Source: an uncultured Alphaproteobacteria bacterium
GTDB lineage: Bacteria > Pseudomonadota > Alphaproteobacteria > Rhizobiales > Beijerinckiaceae
Assembly: GCA_963808525.1 (NCBI GenBank)
Contig: CAWEGE010000014.1
Span: 52,736-116,735, forward strand
DNA: 64,000 nucleotides
Direction: 5' to 3'
Position 1 is the first letter of the stretch, and the number at the start of each line of letters is the position of its first letter. Positions 4,855 through 37,038 of this stretch are shown one piece after another. The position numbers were made by a program, and so were the translations under genes. Below the pieces are notes generated by a model, which worked only from the letters and a program-made list of their open reading frames with translations, did no database searches and was not told the origin of the DNA.

Positions 4855-5739
4855 ATGAGTGAAACGATCCTCCTCTCCAACGCCGCCGGCGACAGCGCCG
4901 AGATCGCCCTCTTCGGCGCCGAGCTTTCCGCCTGGAGGGCGAATGGCGTCGATCTCATCTGGGAGATCGACCGGCGCTTTTGGGATCGCACGGCGCCCGT
5001 GCTCTTTCCCATCGTCGGCGCGACCAGGCAGGGATGCGTTCAAGTCGAGGGAGAGAGCTATCCCCTCTCGCTGCATGGCTTCGCCTGGGAGAAGGATTTC
5101 GCCGTCGCCGAGCGGCGCGAAGATTTTCTGCGCCTGGAACTCGCCGCGGACGACGAGACGCGCGGGCTCTATCCTTTCGAATTCCTTTTCGCCGTCGAGT
5201 TTCGGCTGAAGCCCGGCGCGCTCGAGCACGCGCTGATCGTCGCGAACACGGGCGCCAAGCCCCTGCCCTACGCCTGCGGCCTGCATCCGGCCTTCCGCTG
5301 GCCGCTTGCGGGCTCGAAAGCGCAGCATTCCCTCGTGTTCGACGCGCCGGAAAGCCCCGAGTTGCCGGTGATCGGCCAGGGCGGGCTCTTCAGCGCGGCG
5401 AAAAAGCGCGTGCCGCTTCAGGATCGCGTCCTGCCGTTGGCCCCGGAACTCTTCGCCAAGGACGCGCTGGTCTTCCTCGACGTCAAAAGCCGCCGCGTCG
5501 CCTTCGACAATGGCAAGGGCGCCCGAATCATCTGCGACTTCCCCGACTTCCCGAATATCGGCTTCTGGATGCGGCCCGGCGCGCCCTATCTCTGCCTCGA
5601 GCCCTGGACCGGCCATGGGGACCCGGAAGACTTTTTCGGCGAACTTGCCGAGAAACCGTCGATGCGTCTCCTCGCTCCGGGCGAGAGCGCTGGGCACAAA
5701 GCGGTTTTTCGCTTTGAAAAGACGGGCGAAGCGTTTTAA
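4855..5739 (+). CDS. Aldose 1-epimerase family protein (LacX-like)
   Basis: APVLFPIVG, HGFAW, LHPAFRWP and YLCLEPWTG motifs. Confidence 0.88.
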   Translation: MSETILLSNAAGDSAEIALFGAELSAWRANGVDLIWEIDRRFWDRTAPVLFPIVGATRQGCVQVEGESYPLSLHGFAWEKDFAVAERREDFLRLELAADDETRGLYPFEFLFAVEFRLKPGALEHALIVANTGAKPLPYACGLHPAFRWPLAGSKAQHSLVFDAPESPELPVIGQGGLFSAAKKRVPLQDRVLPLAPELFAKDALVFLDVKSRRVAFDNGKGARIICDFPDFPNIGFWMRPGAPYLCLEPWTGHGDPEDFFGELAEKPSMRLLAPGESAGHKAVFRFEKTGEAF

Positions 5740-5797
5740 GCGAAAACTTTCGGCCCGGACATTGCTTGTTTTGAGCGCGCTGCAGGACCCCCGCCCC

Positions 5798-6829
5798 ATG
5801 ACCATCGCCCCTTCTGTCATCGACGCCATCGGCAAGACGCCGCTCATCGAATTGCGCGCGGCCTCGAAAGCGACCGGCTGCCGCATCCTGGGCAAGGCCG
5901 AGTTCATGAACCCCGGCGGCTCGGTCAAGGACCGCGCGGCGCTCTACATCGTGAAGGACGCCATCGCCAAGGGAACTTTGAAGCCCGGCGGCGTCATCGT
6001 CGAGGGCACGGCCGGCAACACCGGCATCGGCCTCGCGCTCGTGGCGAACGCCATGGGCTACAAGACGGTCATCGTGATCCCCGAGACGCAGTCGCAGGAA
6101 AAGAAGGACATGCTGCGGCTGCAGGGCGCCGAGCTCGTCGAGGTGCCGGCCGTTCCCTACGCAAATCCCAATAATTACGTGAAGCTCTCGGGCCGCCTCG
6201 CCGAGCGTCTCGCCAAGGAGCGTCCCGAGGGCGCGATCTGGGCCAATCAATTCGACAATGTCGCGAACCGCGAGGCGCATATCGAAACGACGGGGCCGGA
6301 GATCTGGGACGAGCTTGGCGGTGCGGTCGACGGCTTCATCTGCGCCTGCGGCACCGGCGGCACGCTGGCCGGCGTCGGCCTGGCGCTGAAGGCGCGCGAT
6401 CCGAAGATCAGAATCGGCATCGCCGATCCGATGGGCGCGGCGCTCTATTCCTATTACACGACTGGCGAGCTGAAGTCCTCGGGAACATCGATCACGGAAG
6501 GGATCGGCCAGGGCCGCGTCACCGAAAATCTCGTCGGCGCGCCGATCGACTTCGCCTGCCAAGTGCCGGACGACGAGGCGCTGCCCATCGTCTTCGACCT
6601 CGCCGAGAAGGAAGGGCTGCTGCTTGGCGGTTCTTCAGGGATCAATGTCGCCGGCGCGATCCGGCTGGCGCGTGAGCTCGGCCCCGGCAAGACAATCGTC
6701 ACCATTCTTTGCGACGGCGGCGCCCGCTACGCCTCGAAGCTCTTCAATACCGAGTTCCTGCGCGGCCTCAATCTGCCGACGCCGCCTTGGCTCGCGCCGC
6801 GCGAGAAGATCGATCCGGGGTTTGTTTAG
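5798..6829 (+). CDS. cysK: Cysteine synthase A
   Basis: KAEFMNPGGSVKDR (PLP lysine), EGTAGNTGIG, NQFDN and GTGGT motifs. Confidence 0.93.
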   Translation: MTIAPSVIDAIGKTPLIELRAASKATGCRILGKAEFMNPGGSVKDRAALYIVKDAIAKGTLKPGGVIVEGTAGNTGIGLALVANAMGYKTVIVIPETQSQEKKDMLRLQGAELVEVPAVPYANPNNYVKLSGRLAERLAKERPEGAIWANQFDNVANREAHIETTGPEIWDELGGAVDGFICACGTGGTLAGVGLALKARDPKIRIGIADPMGAALYSYYTTGELKSSGTSITEGIGQGRVTENLVGAPIDFACQVPDDEALPIVFDLAEKEGLLLGGSSGINVAGAIRLARELGPGKTIVTILCDGGARYASKLFNTEFLRGLNLPTPPWLAPREKIDPGFV

Positions 6830-6901
6830 CGGGACTAACCTGCAAAGCGTTGGCGACAAATGCGAACCTTCGGCTCGCATGAACCGATCATATGAGCGTG
6901 G

Positions 6902-8197
6902 TCAATCCCGCCCCGCAATCCGCTCCACTTCGGCGCCGCAGGCCGAGAGCTTCTTCTCCAGGCGCTCGAAGCCGCGGTCGAGGTGATAGACGCGGTTGAT
7001 CGTCGTCTCGCCCTTGGCGACGAGACCGGCGATGACGAGCGAGACCGAGGCGCGCAGATCGGTCGCCATCACTTGCGCGCCCTGCAATTCCTCGGCGCCC
7101 GTGACGATCGCGCTGTCGCCTTCCAGGCGAATGCGCGCGCCGAGACGCGCGAGCTCCTGCACATGCATGAAGCGGTTCTCGAAGATCGTCTCGGTGATGC
7201 GCGAGACGCCGTCGGCGCGCGTCATCAGCGCCATGAACTGCGCCTGAAGATCAGTCGGGAACAAGGGGAAGGGCGCGGTGCGGACGTCGACGGGCGCAAG
7301 CCCCGACCCGTTGCGCACGACGCGCAGCCCGGAGTTCGTCTCGGTGACCTCGGCGCCGGCCGCTTTCAAGGAGTCGAGCGCCGCCTGCAGCAGATTTGCG
7401 CGCGCGCCGGTGAGGTGAACGTCGCCGCCAGTCATGGCCACGGCCATCGCATAGGTGCCGGCTTCGATTCTGTCGGGCAGCACGCTGTGCCAGGCGCCGT
7501 GCAAGGACGGCACGCCCTGGATCTCGACGGTCGATTGGCCCGCGCCCTTGATGCGCGCGCCCATCGCGTTGAGGCAATCGGCAAGATCGACGATCTCCGG
7601 CTCGCGCGCCGCGTTATGGAGCACGGTCGTTCCCTTGGCGAGCGCGGCCGCCATCAGCGCCATATGCGTGCCGCCGACCGTGACCTTCTCGAAGTCGATC
7701 TCGGCGCCGACGAGCCCCTTCTTGGCTTGCGCGACGACATAGCCGTTCTCGATCGCGATCTCCGCGCCGAGCTTCTCCATCGCCATGAGCAGCAGATCGA
7801 CCGGGCGCGTGCCGATCGCGCAGCCGCCGGGCAGCGAGACGCGCGCCTCGCCCATGCGGGCCAAGAGCGGCGCGAGCACCCAGAAGCTCGCGCGCATGCG
7901 TGAGACCATCTCATAGGGGGCGGTTGTGTCGACGATCTCGCGCGCGGTGAGCTGGACGGTGCGGCCAGCATCCGGCAAGGCGCCGGCGCGCTTGCCCGCG
8001 ATGGTGTAGTCGACCCCGTGATTGCTGAGTATGCGCTCGAGCTGCGACACATCGGCGAGCTGCGGCATGTTCTCGAGCGTGAGCGTCTCGCGCGTGAGGA
8101 GCGAGGCGATCATCAGCGGGAGAGCGGCGTTTTTGGCGCCGGAAATCGGGATGGCTCCCTTCAGCTCATGGCCGCCGACGATCTTGATCTTGTCCAT
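6902..8197 (-). CDS. murA: UDP-N-acetylglucosamine 1-carboxyvinyltransferase
   Basis: [21 protein letters not shown] (catalytic Cys), [16 protein letters not shown] and DLRAS motifs. Confidence 0.98.
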
Positions 8198-30582: not shown

Positions 30583-31675
30583 CGTCGCTTAGGCCGCCCA
30601 GCATATTCGCCAACGCTTCTGGATAGATCAGCTCCTTTGACGCGGCGATGTCCTCCGGACGCCACCATTTCCAGCCGAGCACGTAAGACGCCTCGCCCTC
30701 CGTGAGCGCACTCAAATCGGGCTCGAAATTCTCGCAGCACACGAGATAATAGCGTTCCACGCCCTGCACCCATCCGCTGGGCAGCAGCAGCGGGAACTCG
30801 CGCGAGGCGATGGCAGCGCCGACGTCGACGCCTGAGAGCCCCGTCTCCTCGCGAATTTCACGCGCGGCGCAGGCTTCGAAACTCTCTCCGGCCTCGCGCG
30901 CGCCGCCGGGCTGTCCCCAAAAATGCGCATAGCCCTGCGCTGCGACGTCCGGCAGGATGCGGCTCGCGAATTTGAGCAGCAGCGTCTCGCCCCTCGGGTT
31001 GACGAGCAGCGCGCGCGACGCCTCGCGTCGCGTGAGCGTGATCGCTTCGTAAGGCGCGAGGATCGGCGCGCGCGTGTCGGCGCGCGCCCAATCGACGAGC
31101 GACCACTTGTCGTTCTCGAAGGCAAACCAGTTCGGCGCGGCGTTGAGCGCGGGAAGCGAGCGGGGCTCGTCGAGGCGCTTCTCCATCGCCATGCGCCAGG
31201 CGATGTCGAGCACGCCGGCATGCACGACGACGAGCAGCGTCTCGCCGGGATGGGCGGCTGCGATCTTCGTAAGGCCCGAGCGCACGCGCGCGGCGAAGCG
31301 CATCAGCGTCTCGCCGCCCGGCGCCCATAATCCGCGCGGCGGTCGAGGTAATGGCGGTAATCTTCGGGGTAGCGCGCCGCCACCTCCCTCATAACTCAAG
31401 CCGTGCCAAAGGCCGTCGTGCTTCTCGCGCAGCTCGGGTCTTTGCACGAGGGTCATGCCGCGCCGCGCCGCATGCGGCTGCGCCGTCGCGACGGCGCGCG
31501 ACAGATCGCTCGAGTAGATCCGGTCGAAGGCGCGTTCTGCGAGCTCCAAGTCGAGCGCGGTCGCCTGCATGCGGCCCTTGTGGTTCAGAGCAATGTCGAG
31601 CTGACCCTGGAAACGCCTCTCGAGATTCCAATTCGTCTCGCCATGGCGGGCGAGGCAGAGCAATGTTGGGGGCAT
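30536..31675 (-). CDS. Histidine phosphatase (PGM family) fused to a NUDIX hydrolase
   Basis: RHGETNWN, SSDLSRA and VVHAGV; C-terminal Nudix box GGAREAGESFEACAAREIREETG. Compensating +1/-1 indels at 31325-31385 scramble YEEVAARYPEDY. Confidence 0.85.
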   Translation of the reverse strand: MPPTLLCLARHGETNWNLERRFQGQLDIALNHKGRMQATALDLELAERAFDRIYSSDLSRAVATAQPHAARRGMTLVQRPELREKHDGLWHGLSYEGGGGALPRRLPPLPRPPRGLWAPGGETLMRFAARVRSGLTKIAAAHPGETLLVVVHAGVLDIAWRMAMEKRLDEPRSLPALNAAPNWFAFENDKWSLVDWARADTRAPILAPYEAITLTRREASRALLVNPRGETLLLKFASRILPDVAAQGYAHFWGQPGGAREAGESFEACAAREIREETGLSGVDVGAAIASREFPLLLPSGWVQGVERYYLVCCENFEPDLSALTEGEASYVLGWKWWRPEDIAASKELIYPEALANMLGGLSDAAPSLALPRKRERGP

Positions 31676-31791
31676 GTCGGGCGGGCTTTTCCCAAAAAAG
31701 GGGGCGGCCGCGGGCGCCCGGAGCGTTCCAGGGCTCGCCTATCGGCCGATTTGCGCCGCCTGGCAAGCCGGAAACTCGTCAAAGACCTGCG

Positions 31792-32283
31792 TCATGGCGA
31801 CGCCGGCGACAGCCATCCCGCTATCTCGGGTCCGTCGAGGAGACCCGCCGCGGTGACGACCCTGCCGTTCGCATCGATCAGCGCGGTGAAGGGAAGCTCG
31901 CCGCGCCAGATTCGATCGACCTCGAAGAAAAGCCTGTCGAGAAAATCGTCGGCGAAGCCGTAATGAAGCGCGCCCGCCAGTCCCGCCTTCTCGAGGCGCG
32001 CGCCGGCTTTCACGCGGTCCGACTCTCCATCCACATTGACGAAGACGATGTTGAGCCCTTTTTTCTGGGCTGCGAGCCGCGCCCAGTCGGAGAGTTCCGC
32101 GATGCAGGGCGCGCAGGTCACGGACCAAAAATGCACCAGGAGCGGCCGGCCCTCATGGGCCTGGCGCAGCTCTGCGAAGGTTCCGCGCGCGTAGGGCTGG
32201 AACTCGAGCCCCGACGCCGGCGCGGCCATTGCGACGAAAAGCGTTGCAATGGCCGCGAGACGGCGCGCGCAGCCGAGCCGCAT
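31792..32283 (-). CDS. Exported TlpA/ResA-like thioredoxin
   Basis: Signal peptide; LLVHFWSVTCAPCIAEL (CxxC); ELPFTALID cis-Pro loop. Confidence 0.85.
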   Translation of the reverse strand: MRLGCARRLAAIATLFVAMAAPASGLEFQPYARGTFAELRQAHEGRPLLVHFWSVTCAPCIAELSDWARLAAQKKGLNIVFVNVDGESDRVKAGARLEKAGLAGALHYGFADDFLDRLFFEVDRIWRGELPFTALIDANGRVVTAAGLLDGPEIAGWLSPASP

Positions 32284-32389
32284 GCTCGCGCTTATGTCCT
32301 CGTGAGCGCGGATGGCGCGCCGGGCCTCATGCCGATCCCCCTTTTCGTCGGGCTTGGACGATCGGCATCGCGGCGCGGTCATGTCGAAA

Positions 32390-32809
32390 CTAGTGAAACT
32401 TGAAAGTCTGGCCGATATCCATGCCGCCGCCCGGCGGGCGAGGCGCTGTGACCTGGGCGAGAATGCGCTTGACGGCGGCCGCGTGCAGCTCGCTCGTCGT
32501 CTTGTCGATGGTCACCTTGTCGATCTTGCCGGTCGCATCGACATGGAAGCTCGCGGTCGTCTCGCCCTCGCCGAGCTCCTTCTCCTCCTCCGAGGCGCTC
32601 TGCTTCGCGATTTCAGCGTAGAGCGCGGCGAGGAACTTGCTCTCGGAGCGGAACTCCTCCTTCGGGGGCGTGGGCGACGCGGTCTCGGCAGGCTTTGGCG
32701 CTGCGGGCGCCGCTGCGGCCGGCGGTGGCGGCGCGGATTGCGCGAAGGCGCTCGCAGACCAAAGCGACAGGGCCAGCGCGACGCCCCGAGAAACAGGTTT
32801 GGGGATCAT
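32390..32809 (-). CDS. Signal-peptide protein consisting of a TonB C-terminal-like domain (paralog 3)
   Basis: Signal peptide ending SAFA-Q; Pro/Ala linker; FLAALYAEI..GETTASFHVDATGKIDKVTI..PPGGG..GQTFKFH. Confidence 0.7.
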   Translation of the reverse strand: MIPKPVSRGVALALSLWSASAFAQSAPPPPAAAAPAAPKPAETASPTPPKEEFRSESKFLAALYAEIAKQSASEEEKELGEGETTASFHVDATGKIDKVTIDKTTSELHAAAVKRILAQVTAPRPPGGGMDIGQTFKFH

Positions 32810-32820
32810 GGCGGCGCCGA

Positions 32821-33291
32821 TCAATGGAACACGACGCTTTGATAGGCGGAGAAAGACCCGCCGGGCGGCAGCGGAGCCTTGGTCGCAGCAATGGCCTTCT
32901 GAAGCAGCTGGGAATGAGCGGGCGACGAGCCCTTGCAAGCGATGCCCGAGGTCACGCCGCTCGCCGTCACGAGAAACCGGCAGGAAGCGTTGCCGGCGCC
33001 GACGGACGCATTCGCCGGCACATGCGCACGCACCGCAGCCGCGAGCTTCATCATATAGGCGGGATCGGCGTGAGGAGGCTGCTCGGCGTGAGCGGCGGCG
33101 GCTACGCCCGCCTTCTGTTCGGTGGCGGCCGCACCCGCGGCGGCCGGGTGTTTCTCTGCGGGAACGGCGCTTGCCGCCGCCGGAGCCTCCTGAGCCTGAC
33201 CCGAGCCTGCGGCGCCGGTTTGCTCCTCCGCGTAAGCCACGCTGCCAACGCAGAAGAAAACCACAATCAAAGCGACCGAGATCTTCCGCAT
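32821..33291 (-). CDS. Signal-peptide protein consisting of a TonB C-terminal-like domain (paralog 2)
   Basis: Signal peptide ending VAYA-E; Ala-rich linker; YMMKLAAAVRAHVP..ASCRFLV..IACKGS..PPGGSFSAYQSVVFH, alignable by eye to 33437..34147. Confidence 0.7.
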   Translation of the reverse strand: MRKISVALIVVFFCVGSVAYAEEQTGAAGSGQAQEAPAAASAVPAEKHPAAAGAAATEQKAGVAAAAHAEQPPHADPAYMMKLAAAVRAHVPANASVGAGNASCRFLVTASGVTSGIACKGSSPAHSQLLQKAIAATKAPLPPGGSFSAYQSVVFH

Positions 33292-33436
33292 CTTTCCCCC
33301 TTTGCCGCATCGACGCCAAACCGGGGCGCGTTGGAGGCGCATTTTCCCTGCTGACGAGAAACCAAATTTTACTAATCTCTGCGCGGAACGCCCTCCTTCT
33401 CCCCGCGCGAGGGGCCGCACGGAGAGAAGGTCGCCG

Positions 33437-34143
33437 TCAATGGAAATTGACCGACTGCGAGGCGAAGAAACCGCCACCCGGCGGCGCCGGCGCGTGTACC
33501 GAGGCGATGGCGGTATGGAGCAGCGAAGCATGCGCCGGGGTCGAGCCCGAGCATCCAATGCCCGACATCCCGCCCCCGGGGCCCACGTGGAAGCTGCAGC
33601 TGGCGTGACCCGGACCCAGCGTCGACGAGCTCGGCACATGTCGCCTGATCGCCGCCGACAACAGCGCTGCATAGGAGGCGCGCGTAAGGCCGCCAATGTT
33701 CGTCTGACCGCCTTCAATGCCGAGCCTGTGGCGTTCCTGGGCCTGTTGCCTGCGTCCTGACTGAACTTCCTGACGCTTTTCGACAACCTTCTTTTGCTGC
33801 TCGGTGACCTGATTCTTAGCAGGCAAAGGCGGCGCGTCGGGATGCATGACGAGCGGCGGCGGGATCGCGAAGTCCGGCTGCTCCACCGCCTCGGGCGGCA
33901 GAACCTCGTCCATCTCGACCTGCTCCACCGATTCGAACTGGTCGCCCTCGGGAATGAGGTCAGCGCCCACTTCATCGAGCGGGACGATCTTATCGAGGGC
34001 GAAATTCATGAACAGCACGCCGAGCGCCAAATGGGCGAGGAGCACGGCGGCGATCGCGACAGGCTCGAGCCAGCGCGGGCGGATGGGCGTAAAGGCGTTC
34101 TCGGACGCTTCATGGCCGAAGGTTGGGAGGGCTGCGAGGTCTG

Positions 34144-34147
<4 letters not shown>
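33437..34147 (-). CDS. tonB: TonB/TolA-like energy transducer
   Basis: N-terminal TM with AxxxHxAL (VLLAHLAL); Pro/Glu-rich spacer; C-terminal domain; directly after exbD. Confidence 0.75.
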
Positions 34148-34649
<502 letters not shown>

Positions 34650-34650
<1 letters not shown>

Positions 34651-35291
34651 TAAGCAGCCTCCTTCTTACGCGGGGCGACCGGCCGGTCCGAAACATGCGA
34701 GAGCGCGACGTCCTCGATCCAATGGGAGACCTGCTGGCCGACGCGCCCGAAGGCCGCGCCGATGCGGTTATAGCCCACCGCCGCGGGAATGGCCGCGAAG
34801 AGGCCATAGGCGGTCGTGGCGAGCGCTTCCGCAATGCCCGGCGCGACGACCGCAAGGCTCGTGTCCTGCGCCTGCGCGATGCTCGCGAAGCTCGACATGA
34901 TGCCCCACACCGTGCCGAAGAGGCCGATGAAGGGCGCGGTCGACGAGATGATCGCGAGATTGGGCAGGCCGCCTTCTTCCCTGGAGAGAAGTTCGCGCGC
35001 CGCGCGGCTCATCTGCTCGGCGATGCGCTCCCGCCGTTCGTTGGCCGATTCCCCCTCAACATTGAGCGCCGCGGCGCTCTTGCCCATCGCGTCGATCGGC
35101 GCGAGCACGCCGACGTCGCCGCCCGAGCGCGCCGTTTGCGCGGAGCGGCCGATCTTCGCGATGGAATAGGCGCCCATCACGATGAGCACCCAGGTGTAGA
35201 TCGAGGCGGCGAGCAGGAGCAGGATGACCGACTTGCCGACGAGGCCCGCCGCATAGAACATCGTCAGCGGATTGATGGATGAATAGTCCAT
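34650..35291 (-). CDS. exbB: MotA/TolQ/ExbB proton channel
   Basis: APFIGLFGTVWGIM and PGIAEALATTAYGLFAAIPA motifs. Confidence 0.92.
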
Positions 35292-35422
35292 GGTCTTGGT
35301 GTTCCCTGATAACCCTTGCTCCGCCGCTCTCTGCGGACGTCGGGTGTTCTTCTTGCTTATTGGCCGCGCGGCGCGAAATTCTCGCGTGAGCAGGCCGGAT
35401 GTGAGACGATCGGGAGGGGGAG

Positions 35423-35818
35423 TTAGGCGGCCGGCGGCGCGCGCGCGCCGTTGGCGGCCGGCGCCGCCACGGGCTTGATGGCGCTCGCCTCATAGTCGGC
35501 GTAGCCGATGCGCGACGCGTTACGCCGCTCAGGCCGCGCAGAGGAAGCGCTTCGCAGAGGGAGCACGGCCGTTCCCATCCCTAGATGGGCGGCCAGGCAA
35601 CAATCGGGGCAACCGGGAAGTCCCGAGTGGCCCGGCGCATGCTGGGAGCCGGCCTTTTCAGGCGACGCCGCTAGGGCGCCTTTCGCCATGTGGTGGGGAC
35701 ATTCCACCACTGCGCCCCGCACGGCCGACGCCGGACGCGAAAAAGCGGGGCCGAGCAGCCCGACCGTCACGGCGCAAATGGCGGCGAGGACGAAAAACGC
35801 CCTTACACGCACACTCAT
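35423..35818 (-). CDS. DUF2946/CruR-like leader protein with CxxC and C-terminal RAPP
   Basis: Hydrophobic N-terminus, CPHH, His residues, GCPDCC; ends NGARAPPAA*. The stop lies about 130 nt upstream of exbB. Alternative start at 35836. Confidence 0.75.
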   Translation of the reverse strand: MSVRVRAFFVLAAICAVTVGLLGPAFSRPASAVRGAVVECPHHMAKGALAASPEKAGSQHAPGHSGLPGCPDCCLAAHLGMGTAVLPLRSASSARPERRNASRIGYADYEASAIKPVAAPAANGARAPPAA

Positions 35819-35842
35819 TTCGGCCCCTTGTGACATACTTGT

Positions 35843-35871
35843 CTCTTAGCGGAATTTTTAACTTCTGACAA
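35843..35871 (-). promoter_or_regulatory. Possible sigma70 promoter of the DUF2946-exbBD-tonB operon
   Basis: Minus strand TTGTCA-N17-TAAGAG just upstream of the leader ORF. Confidence 0.35.
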
Positions 35872-36000
35872 CGACTAGTCTTGCAGACAATCGCGCCAAA
35901 AAGGGCAAGACCTATTCGGGTTCCGCCCAAGAAGCAACAAATCGCGGGCGGTAGCCCCATCGGAAGTGAAGACCCGCTTCCTCTCCGCGCCGCGAAGCTT

Positions 36001-37038
36001 TCACGGCTTCGCCGACGGAGCAGCAGGCGCAGGCGCGTTGGACTGCGCCGAAGCTTTGGCTGCTCTTTGATCCTGCCAGGCGATCAGCCGATCCACTTCC
36101 TCGAGCCCCTTCTTGGCTTCCAGGAAATCCGGCCTGACCTTCAGGATCGCCAAATAATCCGCCTTCGCGCGCGGAAGGTCCTTCTTGATGCGGAACACGC
36201 TCGCGCGATTGTAGAGAGCTGGAACGACCGTCGGATCGATTTTAAGGGCTGCGTCATAATCGGCGATCGCCTTGTCGAGATCGCCCTTGCTGCGCCAAGC
36301 GGAGCCGCGGTCGACGAAAGCGACGACCGATTTTGGATCGCGCTTCAAGCCTTCGGTGAAATCGGCGATCGCGCGATCGAAATCCTTGGTCTCGAGATAG
36401 AGGTCGCCGCGTGAGAGATAAGGCGCAGCGGTCTTGTCGTATTTGACGGCCTCCGCGAAATCGGCGAGCGCCTTCTCTTCCTTGCGCTCCTGCATGTAGA
36501 TCTTGGCGCGGGCGGTGAACGCCGGTCCATAGGTCGGGTTGAGCTTCAAGGCCTCGCCGAAGTCGGCGATCGCGCCGTCGAAGTCGTGCAGCCCGTAGCG
36601 CGCCGCGCCGCGGCCGATATAGAAGTCCGGGTTCTTGGGCTCGAGCTTGATCGCCGCGTCGAGATCCTTGACGGCCGCAGCGTAGTCCCCCTGCCCGCGA
36701 TAGGCCGCGGCGCGCGCCGAAAGCGCGTTCCCGGATTTCGGCTCGATCTCCAGAGCTTTGGTGAAATCGGCGTAGGCATGGTCGTAGTCGCGTTTCGCAG
36801 CATAGGCGTTGGCGCGGTTGTAGAAGGCCGCCGCCTTGTTGTGCGCCGTCTCCTTGGACCCGAAGCTCGCGATGATCTTCGAGCAGGCGTCGATCGCCGC
36901 ATCGGGGACCGGACCGCTGCAGGCGGGCCAGCCTTGGGCTAGCTGCGCGCGCGCAGCCAGCGGCGCCGAGCAGAGGACAAACGCCAGAGAGGCGACTGCG
37001 AGCGCCCAACGGGACGGGCCTGAAAATCGAGCGATCAT
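36001..37038 (-). CDS. Exported tetratricopeptide repeat protein
   Basis: Signal peptide, CSG...AIDACS, and about 7 TPR units (AIADF..AL.L.P). Confidence 0.9.
   Translation of the reverse strand: MIARFSGPSRWALAVASLAFVLCSAPLAARAQLAQGWPACSGPVPDAAIDACSKIIASFGSKETAHNKAAAFYNRANAYAAKRDYDHAYADFTKALEIEPKSGNALSARAAAYRGQGDYAAAVKDLDAAIKLEPKNPDFYIGRGAARYGLHDFDGAIADFGEALKLNPTYGPAFTARAKIYMQERKEEKALADFAEAVKYDKTAAPYLSRGDLYLETKDFDRAIADFTEGLKRDPKSVVAFVDRGSAWRSKGDLDKAIADYDAALKIDPTVVPALYNRASVFRIKKDLPRAKADYLAILKVRPDFLEAKKGLEEVDRLIAWQDQRAAKASAQSNAPAPAAPSAKP

What the first reader, a model, noticed from the sequence alone, without database searches (positions are those of the whole stretch)
35291..35818. CruR-like CxxC/RAPP leader ORF placed over an ExbB-ExbD-TonB energiser operon instead of a receptor gene
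Seen: a 131-aa ORF with a hydrophobic N-terminus, CPHH, several His and GCPDCC, ending ...NGARAPPAA* (RAPP at 35432-35443), about 130 nt before exbB. Known: DUF2946 proteins such as Bordetella CruR act as copper-responsive upstream ORFs for TonB-dependent receptor operons, and RAPP is a ribosome-arrest motif (ApdA/ApdP class). Inferred: metal sensing by a stalling nascent peptide here controls the proton-motive energiser and accessory periplasmic proteins. In a probable methanotroph, where copper governs metabolism, this would be a post-transcriptional metal switch on uptake capacity.
Basis: partly seen in the sequence, partly recalled or inferred. Interest (0 to 1): 0.85.

Follow-up and report, generated by a model that had tools for sequence, protein, structure and literature searches.

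The report
Metal-sensing leader peptide before exbB operon
A small, conserved gene of the copper-sensing CruR/DUF2946 "stalling peptide" family sits directly in front of the genes that power outer-membrane uptake (ExbB-ExbD-TonB) in a Methylocystis-like methane oxidiser. This points to a known kind of metal switch acting on a target not described for it before, but the switch itself has not been tested.

Summary
On the minus strand an ORF (ATG 35836 or 35818, stop 35425-35423) encodes a 137/131-aa peptide. It has an export-signal-like N-terminus, CPHH, CPDCC and a C-terminal NGARAPPAA. exbB starts 131 nt downstream.

It is a divergent DUF2946 member: Pfam E=0.003, below the curated cut-off, but 13 of 17 homologues match. 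It is under purifying selection (dN/dS about 0.2). RAPP is present in all 45 homologues found.

The order leader, exbB, exbD, tonB-like, TonB_C paralogues, redoxin recurs in about 20 species-level genomes. Those that carry a genus name are Methylocystis, Methylosinus or Methylocapsa. RNA contigs from a cultured relative run unbroken from the leader through the spacer into exbB/exbD.

The spacer has no conserved hairpin and no known RNA family. It carries a C-rich, G-poor tract right after the stop codon. That fits the CruR model of arrest-controlled Rho termination better than the CutF model of hairpin unmasking.

A second, divergent DUF2946 leader heads a TonB-dependent receptor gene next door. 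The window lineage lacks that arm.

Stalling, metal identity and direction of control are untested. Verdict: a new variant of a known kind, of moderate interest.

The parts
35843..35871 (-). Promoter-like element: TTGTCA (35871-35866), 17-nt A/T-rich spacer, TAAGAG (35848-35843). It ends 6 nt before ATG 35836.
   Evidence: Conserved block in the alignment of 7 loci. The simple sigma-70 scan did not call it. In relative L008, RNA contig 5' ends lie 19-25 nt inside the ORF with no RNA upstream. Function as a promoter, and a leaderless mRNA, are inferred.
35423..35836 (-). Leader ORF (DUF2946/CruR-like), 137 aa from ATG 35836 or 131 aa from ATG 35818 (the latter preceded by AAGGGG), stop TAA 35425-35423.
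   Evidence: Pfam PF11162 E 0.0031, model positions 2-117 of 117. 13/17 homologues hit PF11162. 45 homologues. dN/dS 0.17-0.21.
35723..35836 (-). Export-signal-like N-terminus (basic residues, hydrophobic core AFFVLAAICAVTVGLLGPAF, then PASA).
   Evidence: Read by eye; no signal-peptide predictor was available. Conserved in the alignments.
35690..35701 (-). CPHH: first conserved Cys-His site.
   Evidence: The Cys is invariant and the His nearly invariant in A1 and A5. It aligns with the first conserved Cys of the receptor-side leaders in the profile-profile comparison.
35597..35611 (-). CPDCC: the CxxC(C) candidate metal-binding motif.
   Evidence: C-P-D-C-C-L is invariant in A1. Variants CPFCCL and CPCCLAA occur in wider relatives. 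It aligns to the CxxC of the receptor-side leaders.
35432..35443 (-). RAPP codons (candidate ribosome-arrest motif), followed by Ala-Ala-stop.
   Evidence: N-G-A-R-A-P-P is invariant in A1. RAPP is in 45/45 homologues, 50-52 residues after the Cys motif. Third-position variation within these codons.
35385..35460 (-). C-rich, G-poor tract over the end of the ORF and the start of the spacer (candidate Rho loading site). The core 35425-35396 has 15 C and 3 G in 30 nt.
   Evidence: C 46-53% and G 18-26% in 60-nt windows, the strongest C/G ratio in 34600-36000. 30-nt windows with 3 or fewer G make up 0.5% of the window. Function is inferred.
35292..35422 (-). 131-nt spacer between the leader and exbB. 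An AGGGA ribosome-binding-like site is at 35307-35303.
   Evidence: Folds no better than shuffles (z +1.27). No consensus structure in 23 orthologous spacers. No Rfam match. No promoter-like site. Spacer length is 114-180 nt in relatives.
34650..35291 (-). exbB (MotA/TolQ/ExbB family proton channel), 213 aa.
   Evidence: PF01618 E 5.9e-31. NCBIfam TolQ and ExbB models both score below their cut-offs.
34144..34650 (-). exbD (ExbD/TolR family), 168 aa; its start overlaps the exbB stop.
   Evidence: PF02472 E 4.9e-30.
33437..34147 (-). tonB-like gene, 236 aa: N-terminal membrane helix, Pro/Glu-rich linker, divergent TonB-type C-terminal domain.
   Evidence: No direct Pfam or PDB match. A profile of 18 copies of the C-terminal domain hits mostly TonB C-terminal domains in PDB (10 of the 12 listed; best E 0.011). 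8/18 copies hit Pfam TonB_C.
32821..33291 (-). Periplasmic paralogue 1 of the TonB-like C-terminal domain (156 aa, signal-peptide-like start).
32390..32809 (-). Periplasmic paralogue 2 of the TonB-like C-terminal domain (139 aa).
   Evidence: The long ORF holding it gave TonB_C E 0.001 and TonB_2 E 0.02.
31792..32382 (-). Thioredoxin-fold redoxin (TlpA/AhpC-TSA-like, CAPC motif), last gene of the putative operon.
   Evidence: PF00578 E 6.7e-6. Weak TlpA-model hit. Syntenic in relatives.
31692..31719 (-). Terminator-like hairpin plus T-run after the redoxin gene (possible operon end).
   Evidence: a consensus match only.

Best explanation
The ORF is a regulatory leader peptide of the DUF2946 (CruR/CutF) class. 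It is transcribed as the first cistron of an operon for an ExbB-ExbD-TonB-type energiser, two periplasmic TonB-domain proteins and a redoxin.

Most likely mechanism, by analogy with Bordetella CruR:
1. The ribosome translating the leader arrests at the invariant C-terminal RAPP.
2. While arrested, it covers or blocks the C-rich, G-poor RNA at the ORF end. Rho cannot load, and RNA polymerase reads on into exbB.
3. When the nascent chain's Cys/His sites (CPHH, CPDCC) bind the metal, probably copper, arrest is relieved and the ribosome terminates.
4. Rho then stops transcription in the 131-nt spacer, and the energiser is shut off when the metal is plentiful.

Shown here: the ORF is real and conserved; it belongs to a divergent DUF2946 branch; the gene order is conserved; a relative co-transcribes leader and exbB; the spacer has no conserved hairpin.

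Inferred only: arrest at RAPP, involvement of Rho, the identity of the metal, and the direction of control.
For: - Family: PF11162 matches end to end, and 13/17 homologues match, best E 1.7e-7.
- Motifs: the first Cys, CPDCCL and NGARAPP are invariant. RAPP is in 45/45 homologues at a fixed 50-52 residues after the Cys motif.
- Translated sequence under selection: dN/dS 0.17-0.21, with synonymous variation inside the RAPP codons.
- Gene order: leader then exbB in L001-L006, L008, L087, L089, L090, L091-L105 and L131, about 20 species-level genomes.
- RNA: in a cultured relative, single RNA contigs run 5444-7079, 5440-6691 and 5441-6567 on L008. That spans leader, spacer and exbB (into exbD for two of them), and all start at the leader's 5' end. 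In a fourth run a contig ends exactly at the leader's stop codon, and downstream depth is 2-3 times lower.
- Same logic next door: in one of four runs of another relative, the receptor gene behind the sister leader is at depth 9 against 170 for the leader contig.
- Spacer: long (114-180 nt, as in CruR at 162 nt), unstructured (z +1.27) and without a consensus fold. It has a C-rich, G-poor tract.
- Published mechanism for the family: CXXC senses Cu, RAPP arrests the ribosome, Rho terminates (PMC9426467).
Against: - The window protein scores below Pfam's gathering cut-off.
- The Cys-to-RAPP spacing is 48-52 residues, not the family's 45 plus or minus 2. In CruR a +5 insertion strongly reduced the copper response (PMC9426467).
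- The strong C>G excess after RAPP is confined to the window's own subgroup. Other clade members have C/G of only 1.0-1.7 and a G-poor, A-rich tract further downstream instead.
- RNA evidence comes from assembled contigs of relatives, grown under conditions unknown to me. Contig depth is flat and noisy, and no RNA run holds the window's own sequence.
- The neighbouring receptor in relatives is not of the OprC/NosA copper type.
- DUF2946 genes also head Zn/Cd efflux and Ni/Co loci (PMC4176598, PMC9973294), so copper is not assured.
- CutF shows that the same family can work with the opposite sign.
Confidence: 0.6

Rival explanations
1. CutF-type logic. Metal binding to the exported nascent chain prolongs, rather than relieves, stalling at the Pro-rich end. 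The paused ribosome then opens the RNA so that exbB is translated. The energiser would be switched on by the metal, at the level of translation.
For: The protein belongs to the same superfamily, with an export-signal-like N-terminus, a Cys/His site and a C-terminal PP. CutF works this way (PMC9973294; bioRxiv 10.1101/2025.02.05.636593). Sequence alone cannot fix the sign of regulation.
Against: There is no stable or conserved hairpin over the exbB ribosome-binding site. The spacer is 114-180 nt, whereas CutF-type spacers are mostly under 100 nt (PMC9973294). The motif is CxxC(C)/RAPP as in CruR, not CxxxC/PPR. Inducing an uptake energiser by excess metal makes little physiological sense (inference).
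Confidence: 0.12
2. The ORF encodes a working exported metal-binding protein, such as a periplasmic chaperone or a partner of the TonB system. It is simply the first structural gene of the operon, and RAPP has no regulatory role.
For: It has an export-signal-like N-terminus. Purifying selection acts along the whole length, with conserved residues outside the two motifs, for example AVLP.R and Y106. Price et al. proposed a copper-homeostasis role for DUF2946 from cofitness (bioRxiv 10.1101/072470).
Against: The most strictly conserved block is the C-terminal NGARAPP, with a fixed distance to the Cys motif. That is what an arrest peptide needs and is odd for a folded domain. The ORF always sits first, followed by a long spacer. 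The CruR and CutF products were not detectable in vivo and act only in cis (PMC9426467, PMC9973294).
Confidence: 0.1
3. A secretion-monitoring arrest peptide of the SecM/ApdA/ApdP kind. Arrest at RAPP is released by the pulling force of Sec translocation, so the operon reports export capacity rather than metal status.
For: RAPP is the arrest motif of ApdA/ApdP-type monitors (as summarised in bioRxiv 10.1101/2025.02.05.636593). The leader has an export-signal-like N-terminus.
Against: The invariant Cys/His motifs and the DUF2946 match point to metal binding. The downstream genes are not protein-export genes. The sister leader heads a TonB-dependent receptor.
Confidence: 0.06
4. A chance ORF in GC-rich DNA, with exbB driven by its own promoter.
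For: GC3 of the ORF (0.75) is lower than in neighbouring genes. High-GC DNA yields many spurious ORFs.
Against: There are 45 homologues with invariant motifs. dN/dS is about 0.2. RNA contigs start at the ORF's 5' end and continue into exbB.
Confidence: 0.01

Closest known systems
CruR (Bp2923) of Bordetella pertussis, DUF2946, leader of the bp2923-bfrG-bp2921 operon (PMC9426467)
   Same: A small first-cistron ORF with an export-signal-like N-terminus, a semi-conserved upstream Cys, CxxC, and RAPP a few residues before the stop. A long unstructured spacer follows (131 nt here, 162 nt there), with C>G-rich RNA near the ORF end. The downstream genes serve TonB-dependent uptake.
   Different: The next gene is exbB (the inner-membrane energiser), not the receptor or a PepSY_TM gene. 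The Cys-to-RAPP spacing is 48-52 residues against 45. The motif is CPDCC with an extra Cys. The Pfam score is below the cut-off. Copper response, arrest and Rho dependence are not shown here.
CutF of Rhodobacter capsulatus, DUF2946-like leader of cutFOG (PMC9973294; bioRxiv 10.1101/2025.02.05.636593)
   Same: A nascent exported metal-sensing leader with a C-terminal Pro-rich stalling motif that acts in cis on the next gene.
   Different: CutF has CxxxC and PPR-type motifs, a short spacer with a hairpin that masks the ribosome-binding site, and activation by copper of a detoxifying oxidase. None of these features is seen here.
The receptor-side DUF2946 leaders in the same loci of relatives (for example L008 4924-5319, followed by a TonB-dependent receptor gene)
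   Same: The same architecture, and a homologous metal-binding core (hhalign probability 85%, E 6e-6). They are divergently transcribed from the same short promoter region.
   Different: No pairwise similarity beyond the R(A/G)PP tail. The spacing is 46 residues. The motif is CxxC without the second Cys, and tails are RGPP or RAPP plus 3-6 residues. This arm is absent from the window.
RAPP arrest peptides ApdA/ApdP, and SecM (RAGP)
   Same: A C-terminal R-A-P-P/R-A-G-P arrest-type motif in an exported leader peptide upstream of the regulated gene.
   Different: Those monitor protein export and precede export-machinery genes. They have no Cys/His metal site.
TnaC-tnaA leader of E. coli
   Same: The general logic of the favoured model: a ligand-dependent stalled ribosome at the end of a leader ORF hides a Rho loading site in the spacer.
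   Different: The ligand is tryptophan, sensed in the exit tunnel, and stalling is induced rather than relieved by the ligand. There is no sequence relation.

Membership tests
DUF2946 / CruR-type upstream regulator (PF11162) | Match to the PF11162 profile at or above the curated score | tested here: inconclusive
   The window protein scores 18.7 bits against a cut-off of 23.7 (E 0.0031), but the alignment is end to end, 2-117 of 117. 13 of 17 homologues match at E<=0.01, best 1.7e-7. Some homologues carry a precomputed PF11162 hit or the name 'DUF2946 domain-containing protein'.
DUF2946 / CruR-type upstream regulator (PF11162) | Conserved CXXC motif | tested here: met
   C70-P-D-C73(-C74) is invariant. 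It is present in 44/45 homologues, the exception being a frameshifted entry.
DUF2946 / CruR-type upstream regulator (PF11162) | Conserved RAPP a few residues from the C-terminus | tested here: met
   RAPP at 35443-35432, two residues before the stop. Present in 45/45 homologues. The tail is 1-7 residues in wider relatives.
DUF2946 / CruR-type upstream regulator (PF11162) | CXXC-to-RAPP spacing conserved at about 45 residues, plus or minus 1-2 (PMC9426467) | tested here: not met
   52 residues in the window, 50-52 in 44 homologues and 48-52 in wider relatives. The spacing is tightly kept but 3-7 residues longer. The receptor-side sister leaders have 46.
DUF2946 / CruR-type upstream regulator (PF11162) | N-terminal export signal (over 95% of the family) | tested here: inconclusive
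   A basic n-region, a 20-residue hydrophobic core and a PASA site are seen by eye. No predictor was available.
DUF2946 / CruR-type upstream regulator (PF11162) | First gene of an operon, with a long spacer before the next gene | tested here: met
   The spacer is 131 nt here and 114-180 nt in relatives. RNA contigs of a relative begin at the leader and continue into exbB.
DUF2946 / CruR-type upstream regulator (PF11162) | Copper-dependent relief of ribosome arrest, causing Rho-dependent termination | not testable with these tools
   Only indirect signs: C-rich, G-poor RNA at the ORF end, and a contig that ends at the leader's stop codon in one RNA run.
CutF-type leader (RBS-masking hairpin) | Stem-loop in a short spacer that hides the ribosome-binding site of the next gene | tested here: not met
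   MFE z-score +1.27 with the ribosome-binding site unpaired. No pairs predicted by RNAalifold on 23 spacers. The spacer is longer than 100 nt.
ExbB-ExbD-TonB energiser | MotA/ExbB-family channel and ExbD/TolR-family partner encoded side by side | tested here: met
   PF01618 E 6e-31 and PF02472 E 5e-30. The NCBIfam equivalog cut-offs for ExbB/ExbD and for TolQ/TolR are not reached, so the subfamily is open.
ExbB-ExbD-TonB energiser | TonB protein with membrane anchor, Pro-rich linker and TonB C-terminal domain | tested here: inconclusive
   No direct Pfam or PDB hit for the 236-aa protein. A profile of its C-terminal domain family hits mostly TonB C-terminal domains in PDB, but weakly (10 of the 12 listed; best E 0.011). 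8/18 domain copies hit TonB_C. A receptor gene is adjacent in relatives.

The most novel reading that the evidence does not exclude
In alphaproteobacterial methanotrophs (Methylocystis, Methylosinus, Methylocapsa), a TonB-dependent receptor and its private ExbB-ExbD-TonB motor would each be gated by its own nascent-peptide metal sensor. The two sensors are transcribed back to back and differ in Cys motif and in motif-to-RAPP spacing, so the two keys could respond to different metal levels or compartments. In the window's lineage the receptor arm is gone but the gated motor is kept. That would imply the motor serves other receptors, for example for chalkophore- or metal-complex uptake, and would make the leader part of post-transcriptional copper control in a methanotroph.
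Probability: 0.2. Interest if true: 0.75.

Novelty: new variant of a known kind. Interest (0 to 1): 0.55.

Why it matters
DUF2946 leaders (CruR, CutF) are the only described upstream ORFs that sense a transition metal through the nascent chain. Only two have been studied, and they work with opposite sign. Their reported targets are receptors, PepSY_TM proteins, copper chaperones, oxidases and efflux pumps (PMC9426467, PMC9973294). I found no mention of ExbB in the text or in the held supplements of those two surveys.

A leader placed directly on the energiser would throttle uptake at the power supply rather than at the gate. The paired, divergent leaders in relatives offer a natural experiment on how motif spacing and Cys pattern set the response. 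The clade is limited to methane oxidisers as far as the genomes are named, and copper decides which methane monooxygenase those organisms use. A copper-responsive post-transcriptional control of uptake capacity there would be physiologically relevant. All of this rests on the regulatory action being shown experimentally.

Tried and rejected
- RNA runs for the window's own sequence: none are served. Only soil-metagenome DNA contigs hold it.
- Rfam scan of 35150-36050: only a chance-level sRNA hit, E 0.94.
- Consensus folding of 23 orthologous spacers: no pairs. A conserved riboswitch or attenuator hairpin is therefore rejected.
- Sigma-70 consensus scan: no site anywhere in 31500-36300, so it says nothing about either the leader promoter or an internal one.
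- PDB sequence search with the TonB-like protein alone: nothing. Only the domain profile gave weak TonB hits.
- Search of the supplements of the two DUF2946 survey papers for ExbB/MotA: no occurrence. The key neighbour table of PMC9973294 is not held as text.
- Literature search for copper-responsive ExbB/TonB in Methylocystis: nothing relevant.
- Is the exbB-side leader a recent duplicate of the receptor-side leader? There is no pairwise similarity. Only the profile-level core is shared.
- ExbB relatives at 54-57% identity (Roseiarcus and others) have no such leader. Among the rest of the 80 ExbB/TolQ loci, the motif scan found a RAPP/CxxC ORF only in L012, on the opposite strand.
- Metatranscriptome contigs were too mixed between strains to read attenuation.
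Full report
**1. What is in the sequence**

On the minus strand an ORF ends with TAA at 35425-35423. It encodes ...ECPHH...GCPDCCLAAH...ANGARAPPAA, and the RAPP codons are 35443-35432.

Two in-frame ATGs can start it:
In this subgroup it is preceded by AAGGGG.
- ATG 35836 gives 137 aa starting MSQ. It is conserved in every relative examined.

exbB starts at 35291, so the spacer is 131 nt. The N-terminus looks like an export signal, with basic residues, a 20-residue hydrophobic core and PASA. This is by eye only.

The downstream genes, all on the same strand and tightly packed, are:
- exbB, 35291-34650 (PF01618, E 6e-31).
- exbD, 34650-34144 (PF02472, E 5e-30).
- A 236-aa TonB-like gene, 34147-33437.
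- Two signal-peptide proteins carrying only a copy of that protein's C-terminal domain, 33291-32821 and 32809-32390.
- A thioredoxin-fold redoxin, 32382-31792.
- A terminator-like hairpin, 31719-31702.

The TonB assignment is weak but consistent. A profile of 18 copies of the shared C-terminal domain hits mostly TonB C-terminal domains among solved structures (10 of the 12 listed; best E 0.011). Eight of the 18 copies hit Pfam TonB_C.

**2. Is the ORF real, and what family is it?**

The protein search returned 45 homologues down to 38% identity.
- In a 17-sequence alignment the invariant columns are the first Cys, C-P-D-C-C-L, and N-G-A-R-A-P-P-A, plus a few others.
- All 45 homologues contain RAPP. 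44 have the Cys motif 50-52 residues upstream; the exception is a frameshifted database entry.
- Third-position changes occur inside the RAPP codons.
- dN/dS is 0.17-0.21 between close pairs.

It is therefore a translated, selected peptide.

Pfam DUF2946 (PF11162) matches end to end, but at 18.7 bits against a cut-off of 23.7. Thirteen of 17 homologues match at E<=0.01, the best at 1.7e-7. I read this as a divergent branch of DUF2946.

**3. Conservation of the arrangement**

In six species-level genomes found with the leader, the order is kept: leader, exbB, exbD, tonB-like, TonB-domain paralogues, redoxin. The same holds for Methylocystis rosea SV97 (L008) and for three metagenome contigs.

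Those loci revealed something the window does not show. A second DUF2946-type ORF, ending in RGPP or RAPP plus 3-6 residues, lies head to head with the first. It heads an 870-900-aa TonB-dependent receptor gene.

Using that receptor as a probe gave 48 loci, with the following pattern:
- A DUF2946-type leader precedes the receptor in most alphaproteobacterial loci: Bradyrhizobium, Rhodopseudomonas, Reyranella, Magnetospirillum and others. This is the canonical CruR arrangement.
- The extra, divergent leader-exbB arm occurs only in 16 of the 48 loci. Those that carry a genus or family name are Methylocystis or Methylocystaceae, Methylosinus sporium and Methylocapsa aurea, all methane oxidisers. 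The rest are unclassified alphaproteobacterial MAGs.
- In Magnetospirillum-type loci, exbB-exbD-exbD lie downstream of the receptor in the same direction.

A very close relative of the window (L101; ExbB 96% identical) still has the receptor arm. The window, L001 and L002 have a TPR gene at that position, and the window holds no receptor or second leader anywhere in its 64 kb. The BNR-repeat gene found in the relatives' operon is also missing here.

ExbB relatives at 54-57% identity (Roseiarcus and others) lack the leader.

**4. The two leader types**

- They show no pairwise similarity beyond the tail.
- Their profiles align over the metal-binding core, first Cys to CxxC, with probability 85% and E 6e-6.
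- The receptor-side type keeps 46 residues between CxxC and R(A/G)PP, the value reported for the family (45 plus or minus 1-2; PMC9426467).
- The exbB-side type keeps 48-52. Its Cys motif is CP[DF]CCL or CPCCLAA.

**5. Transcripts**

No RNA run holds the window's own sequence. Public RNA-seq contigs of cultured relatives lie on the M. rosea locus.

*One organism, four runs.*
- In three runs a single contig begins 19-25 nt inside the leader ORF and runs through the spacer into exbB. The contigs are 5444-7079, 5440-6691 and 5441-6567.
- No RNA covers the 60 nt upstream. These contigs are therefore RNA-derived, and leader and exbB are co-transcribed.
- In the fourth run the contig stops exactly at the leader's stop codon (5438-5848, depth 10.2). 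The next contigs are at depth 3-6. This suggests premature termination, but the data are thin.

*A second organism, four runs.*
- Three runs give one contig across receptor, both leaders and exbB.
- In the fourth, the receptor gene is at depth 9 while the contig holding both leaders and the exbB operon is at 170. The break is at the receptor's start codon. This is the behaviour expected of a CruR-type attenuator at the sister leader.

Run identities and growth conditions are coded, so I cannot link either case to a metal. Contig depth is a crude measure.

*Promoter.* The contig starts fit a conserved TTGTCA, 17-nt spacer, TA(A/T)GAG block that ends 6 nt before ATG 35836. That points to a leaderless or near-leaderless mRNA; this is inference.

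**6. The spacer**

- It folds no better than shuffled sequence (z +1.27), and the exbB ribosome-binding site is unpaired.
- 23 orthologous spacers give no consensus structure.
- Rfam finds nothing.
- No promoter-like site was called, although the scan also missed the upstream promoter-like block.
- In the window the last 12 codons and the first 40 nt of the spacer form the strongest C>G region of the locus: C 46-53%, G 18-26%. The 30 nt from the stop codon hold 15 C and 3 G, a composition seen in 0.5% of 30-nt windows.
- In more distant clade members this C-rich tract is weak. A G-poor, A/C-rich tract 40-60 nt before exbB is the recurrent feature instead. 15 of 23 spacers have a 30-nt stretch with 3 or fewer G, against 8.6% of random 140-nt segments.

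**7. Mechanism**

In Bordetella, nascent CruR arrests the ribosome at RAPP. The arrested ribosome keeps Rho off a C>G-rich site, so the operon is read. Copper sensed through CXXC relieves the arrest, and Rho terminates in the 162-nt spacer (PMC9426467).

The present locus has all the sequence parts of that device. It lacks the defining part of the alternative CutF device, a hairpin that masks the ribosome-binding site in a short spacer (PMC9973294).

I therefore favour CruR-like control of the energiser operon at about 0.6. Within that figure, the steps 'arrest', 'Rho' and 'copper' are inferred. Three points urge caution:
- The longer motif spacing.
- The receptor in relatives is not of the OprC type.
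- DUF2946 genes also stand before Zn/Cd efflux and Ni/Co loci (PMC4176598, PMC9973294).

**8. Comparison with what is known, and novelty**

The leader is a member, or near-member, of a described class. What differs:
- The gene it precedes. ExbB is not mentioned in the text or the held supplements of the two family surveys.
- A distinct, tightly kept spacing and Cys pattern.
- The back-to-back pairing with a receptor-side leader in relatives, restricted to methane oxidisers where the genomes carry a genus name.
- The loss of the receptor arm in the window's lineage.

I rate it a new variant of a known kind. A specialist would find it a neat extension and a useful comparative system, not a surprise of principle. 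Interest: 0.55.

Noticed in passing
window 33291-32821 and 32809-32390 (minus): Two small signal-peptide proteins (156 and 139 aa) are little more than extra copies of the C-terminal domain of the adjacent TonB-like protein. All three end in F-x-F-H. Free periplasmic TonB-domain paralogues encoded in a TonB operon are unusual, and their role is unknown.
   Followed up: partly
L003-L008, L087, L089-L105, L131 (for example L008 4924-5319 minus, receptor gene about 4847-2247 minus): Relatives carry a second DUF2946-type leader, divergent from and head to head with the exbB leader, that heads a TonB-dependent receptor gene. The window, L001 and L002 have a TPR gene (window 37137-36001) at that place and no receptor.
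   Followed up: yes
L008 9539-10846; L087 11657-12934; L090 9308-10606: A BNR-repeat (beta-propeller) protein gene of 425-450 aa sits between the TonB-domain paralogues and the redoxin gene in relatives. It is absent from the window.
   Followed up: partly
L116, L117, L119 (Terasakiella, Magnetospirillum, Paramagnetospirillum): Here one DUF2946-type leader precedes the receptor gene, and exbB-exbD-exbD follow downstream in the same direction. A single leader may therefore cover both receptor and energiser.
   Followed up: no
window 35871-35834 (minus): A conserved TTGTCA, 17-nt A/T-rich spacer and TAAGAG end 6 nt before the conserved ATG 35836. RNA contigs in a relative start 19-25 nt inside the ORF. 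This suggests a leaderless or near-leaderless leader mRNA. The A/T-rich block could also be an operator.
   Followed up: partly
window 31675-30536 (minus): A histidine-phosphatase/NUDIX fusion gene follows the redoxin gene and a terminator-like site. It keeps this position in most relatives (L001-L003, L087, L090).
   Followed up: no
window 35765-35749 (minus): A terminator-like hairpin plus T-run lies inside the signal-peptide-coding part of the leader ORF. RNA contigs of a relative run through the equivalent place, so it is probably a chance match.
   Followed up: partly
L008 4000-4865, RNA run X24 against X22, X23 and X25: In one of four RNA runs of a cultured relative, the receptor gene is at contig depth 9 while the contig with both leaders and the exbB operon is at 170. 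The break is at the receptor's start codon. This looks like condition-dependent attenuation behind the sister leader. The growth condition is unknown to me.
   Followed up: partly
L003 8001-8391: The leader ORF of this long-read MAG is split by a frameshift, and its receptor gene is broken into several ORFs. Assembly error is likely, but decay of the locus is not excluded.
   Followed up: no
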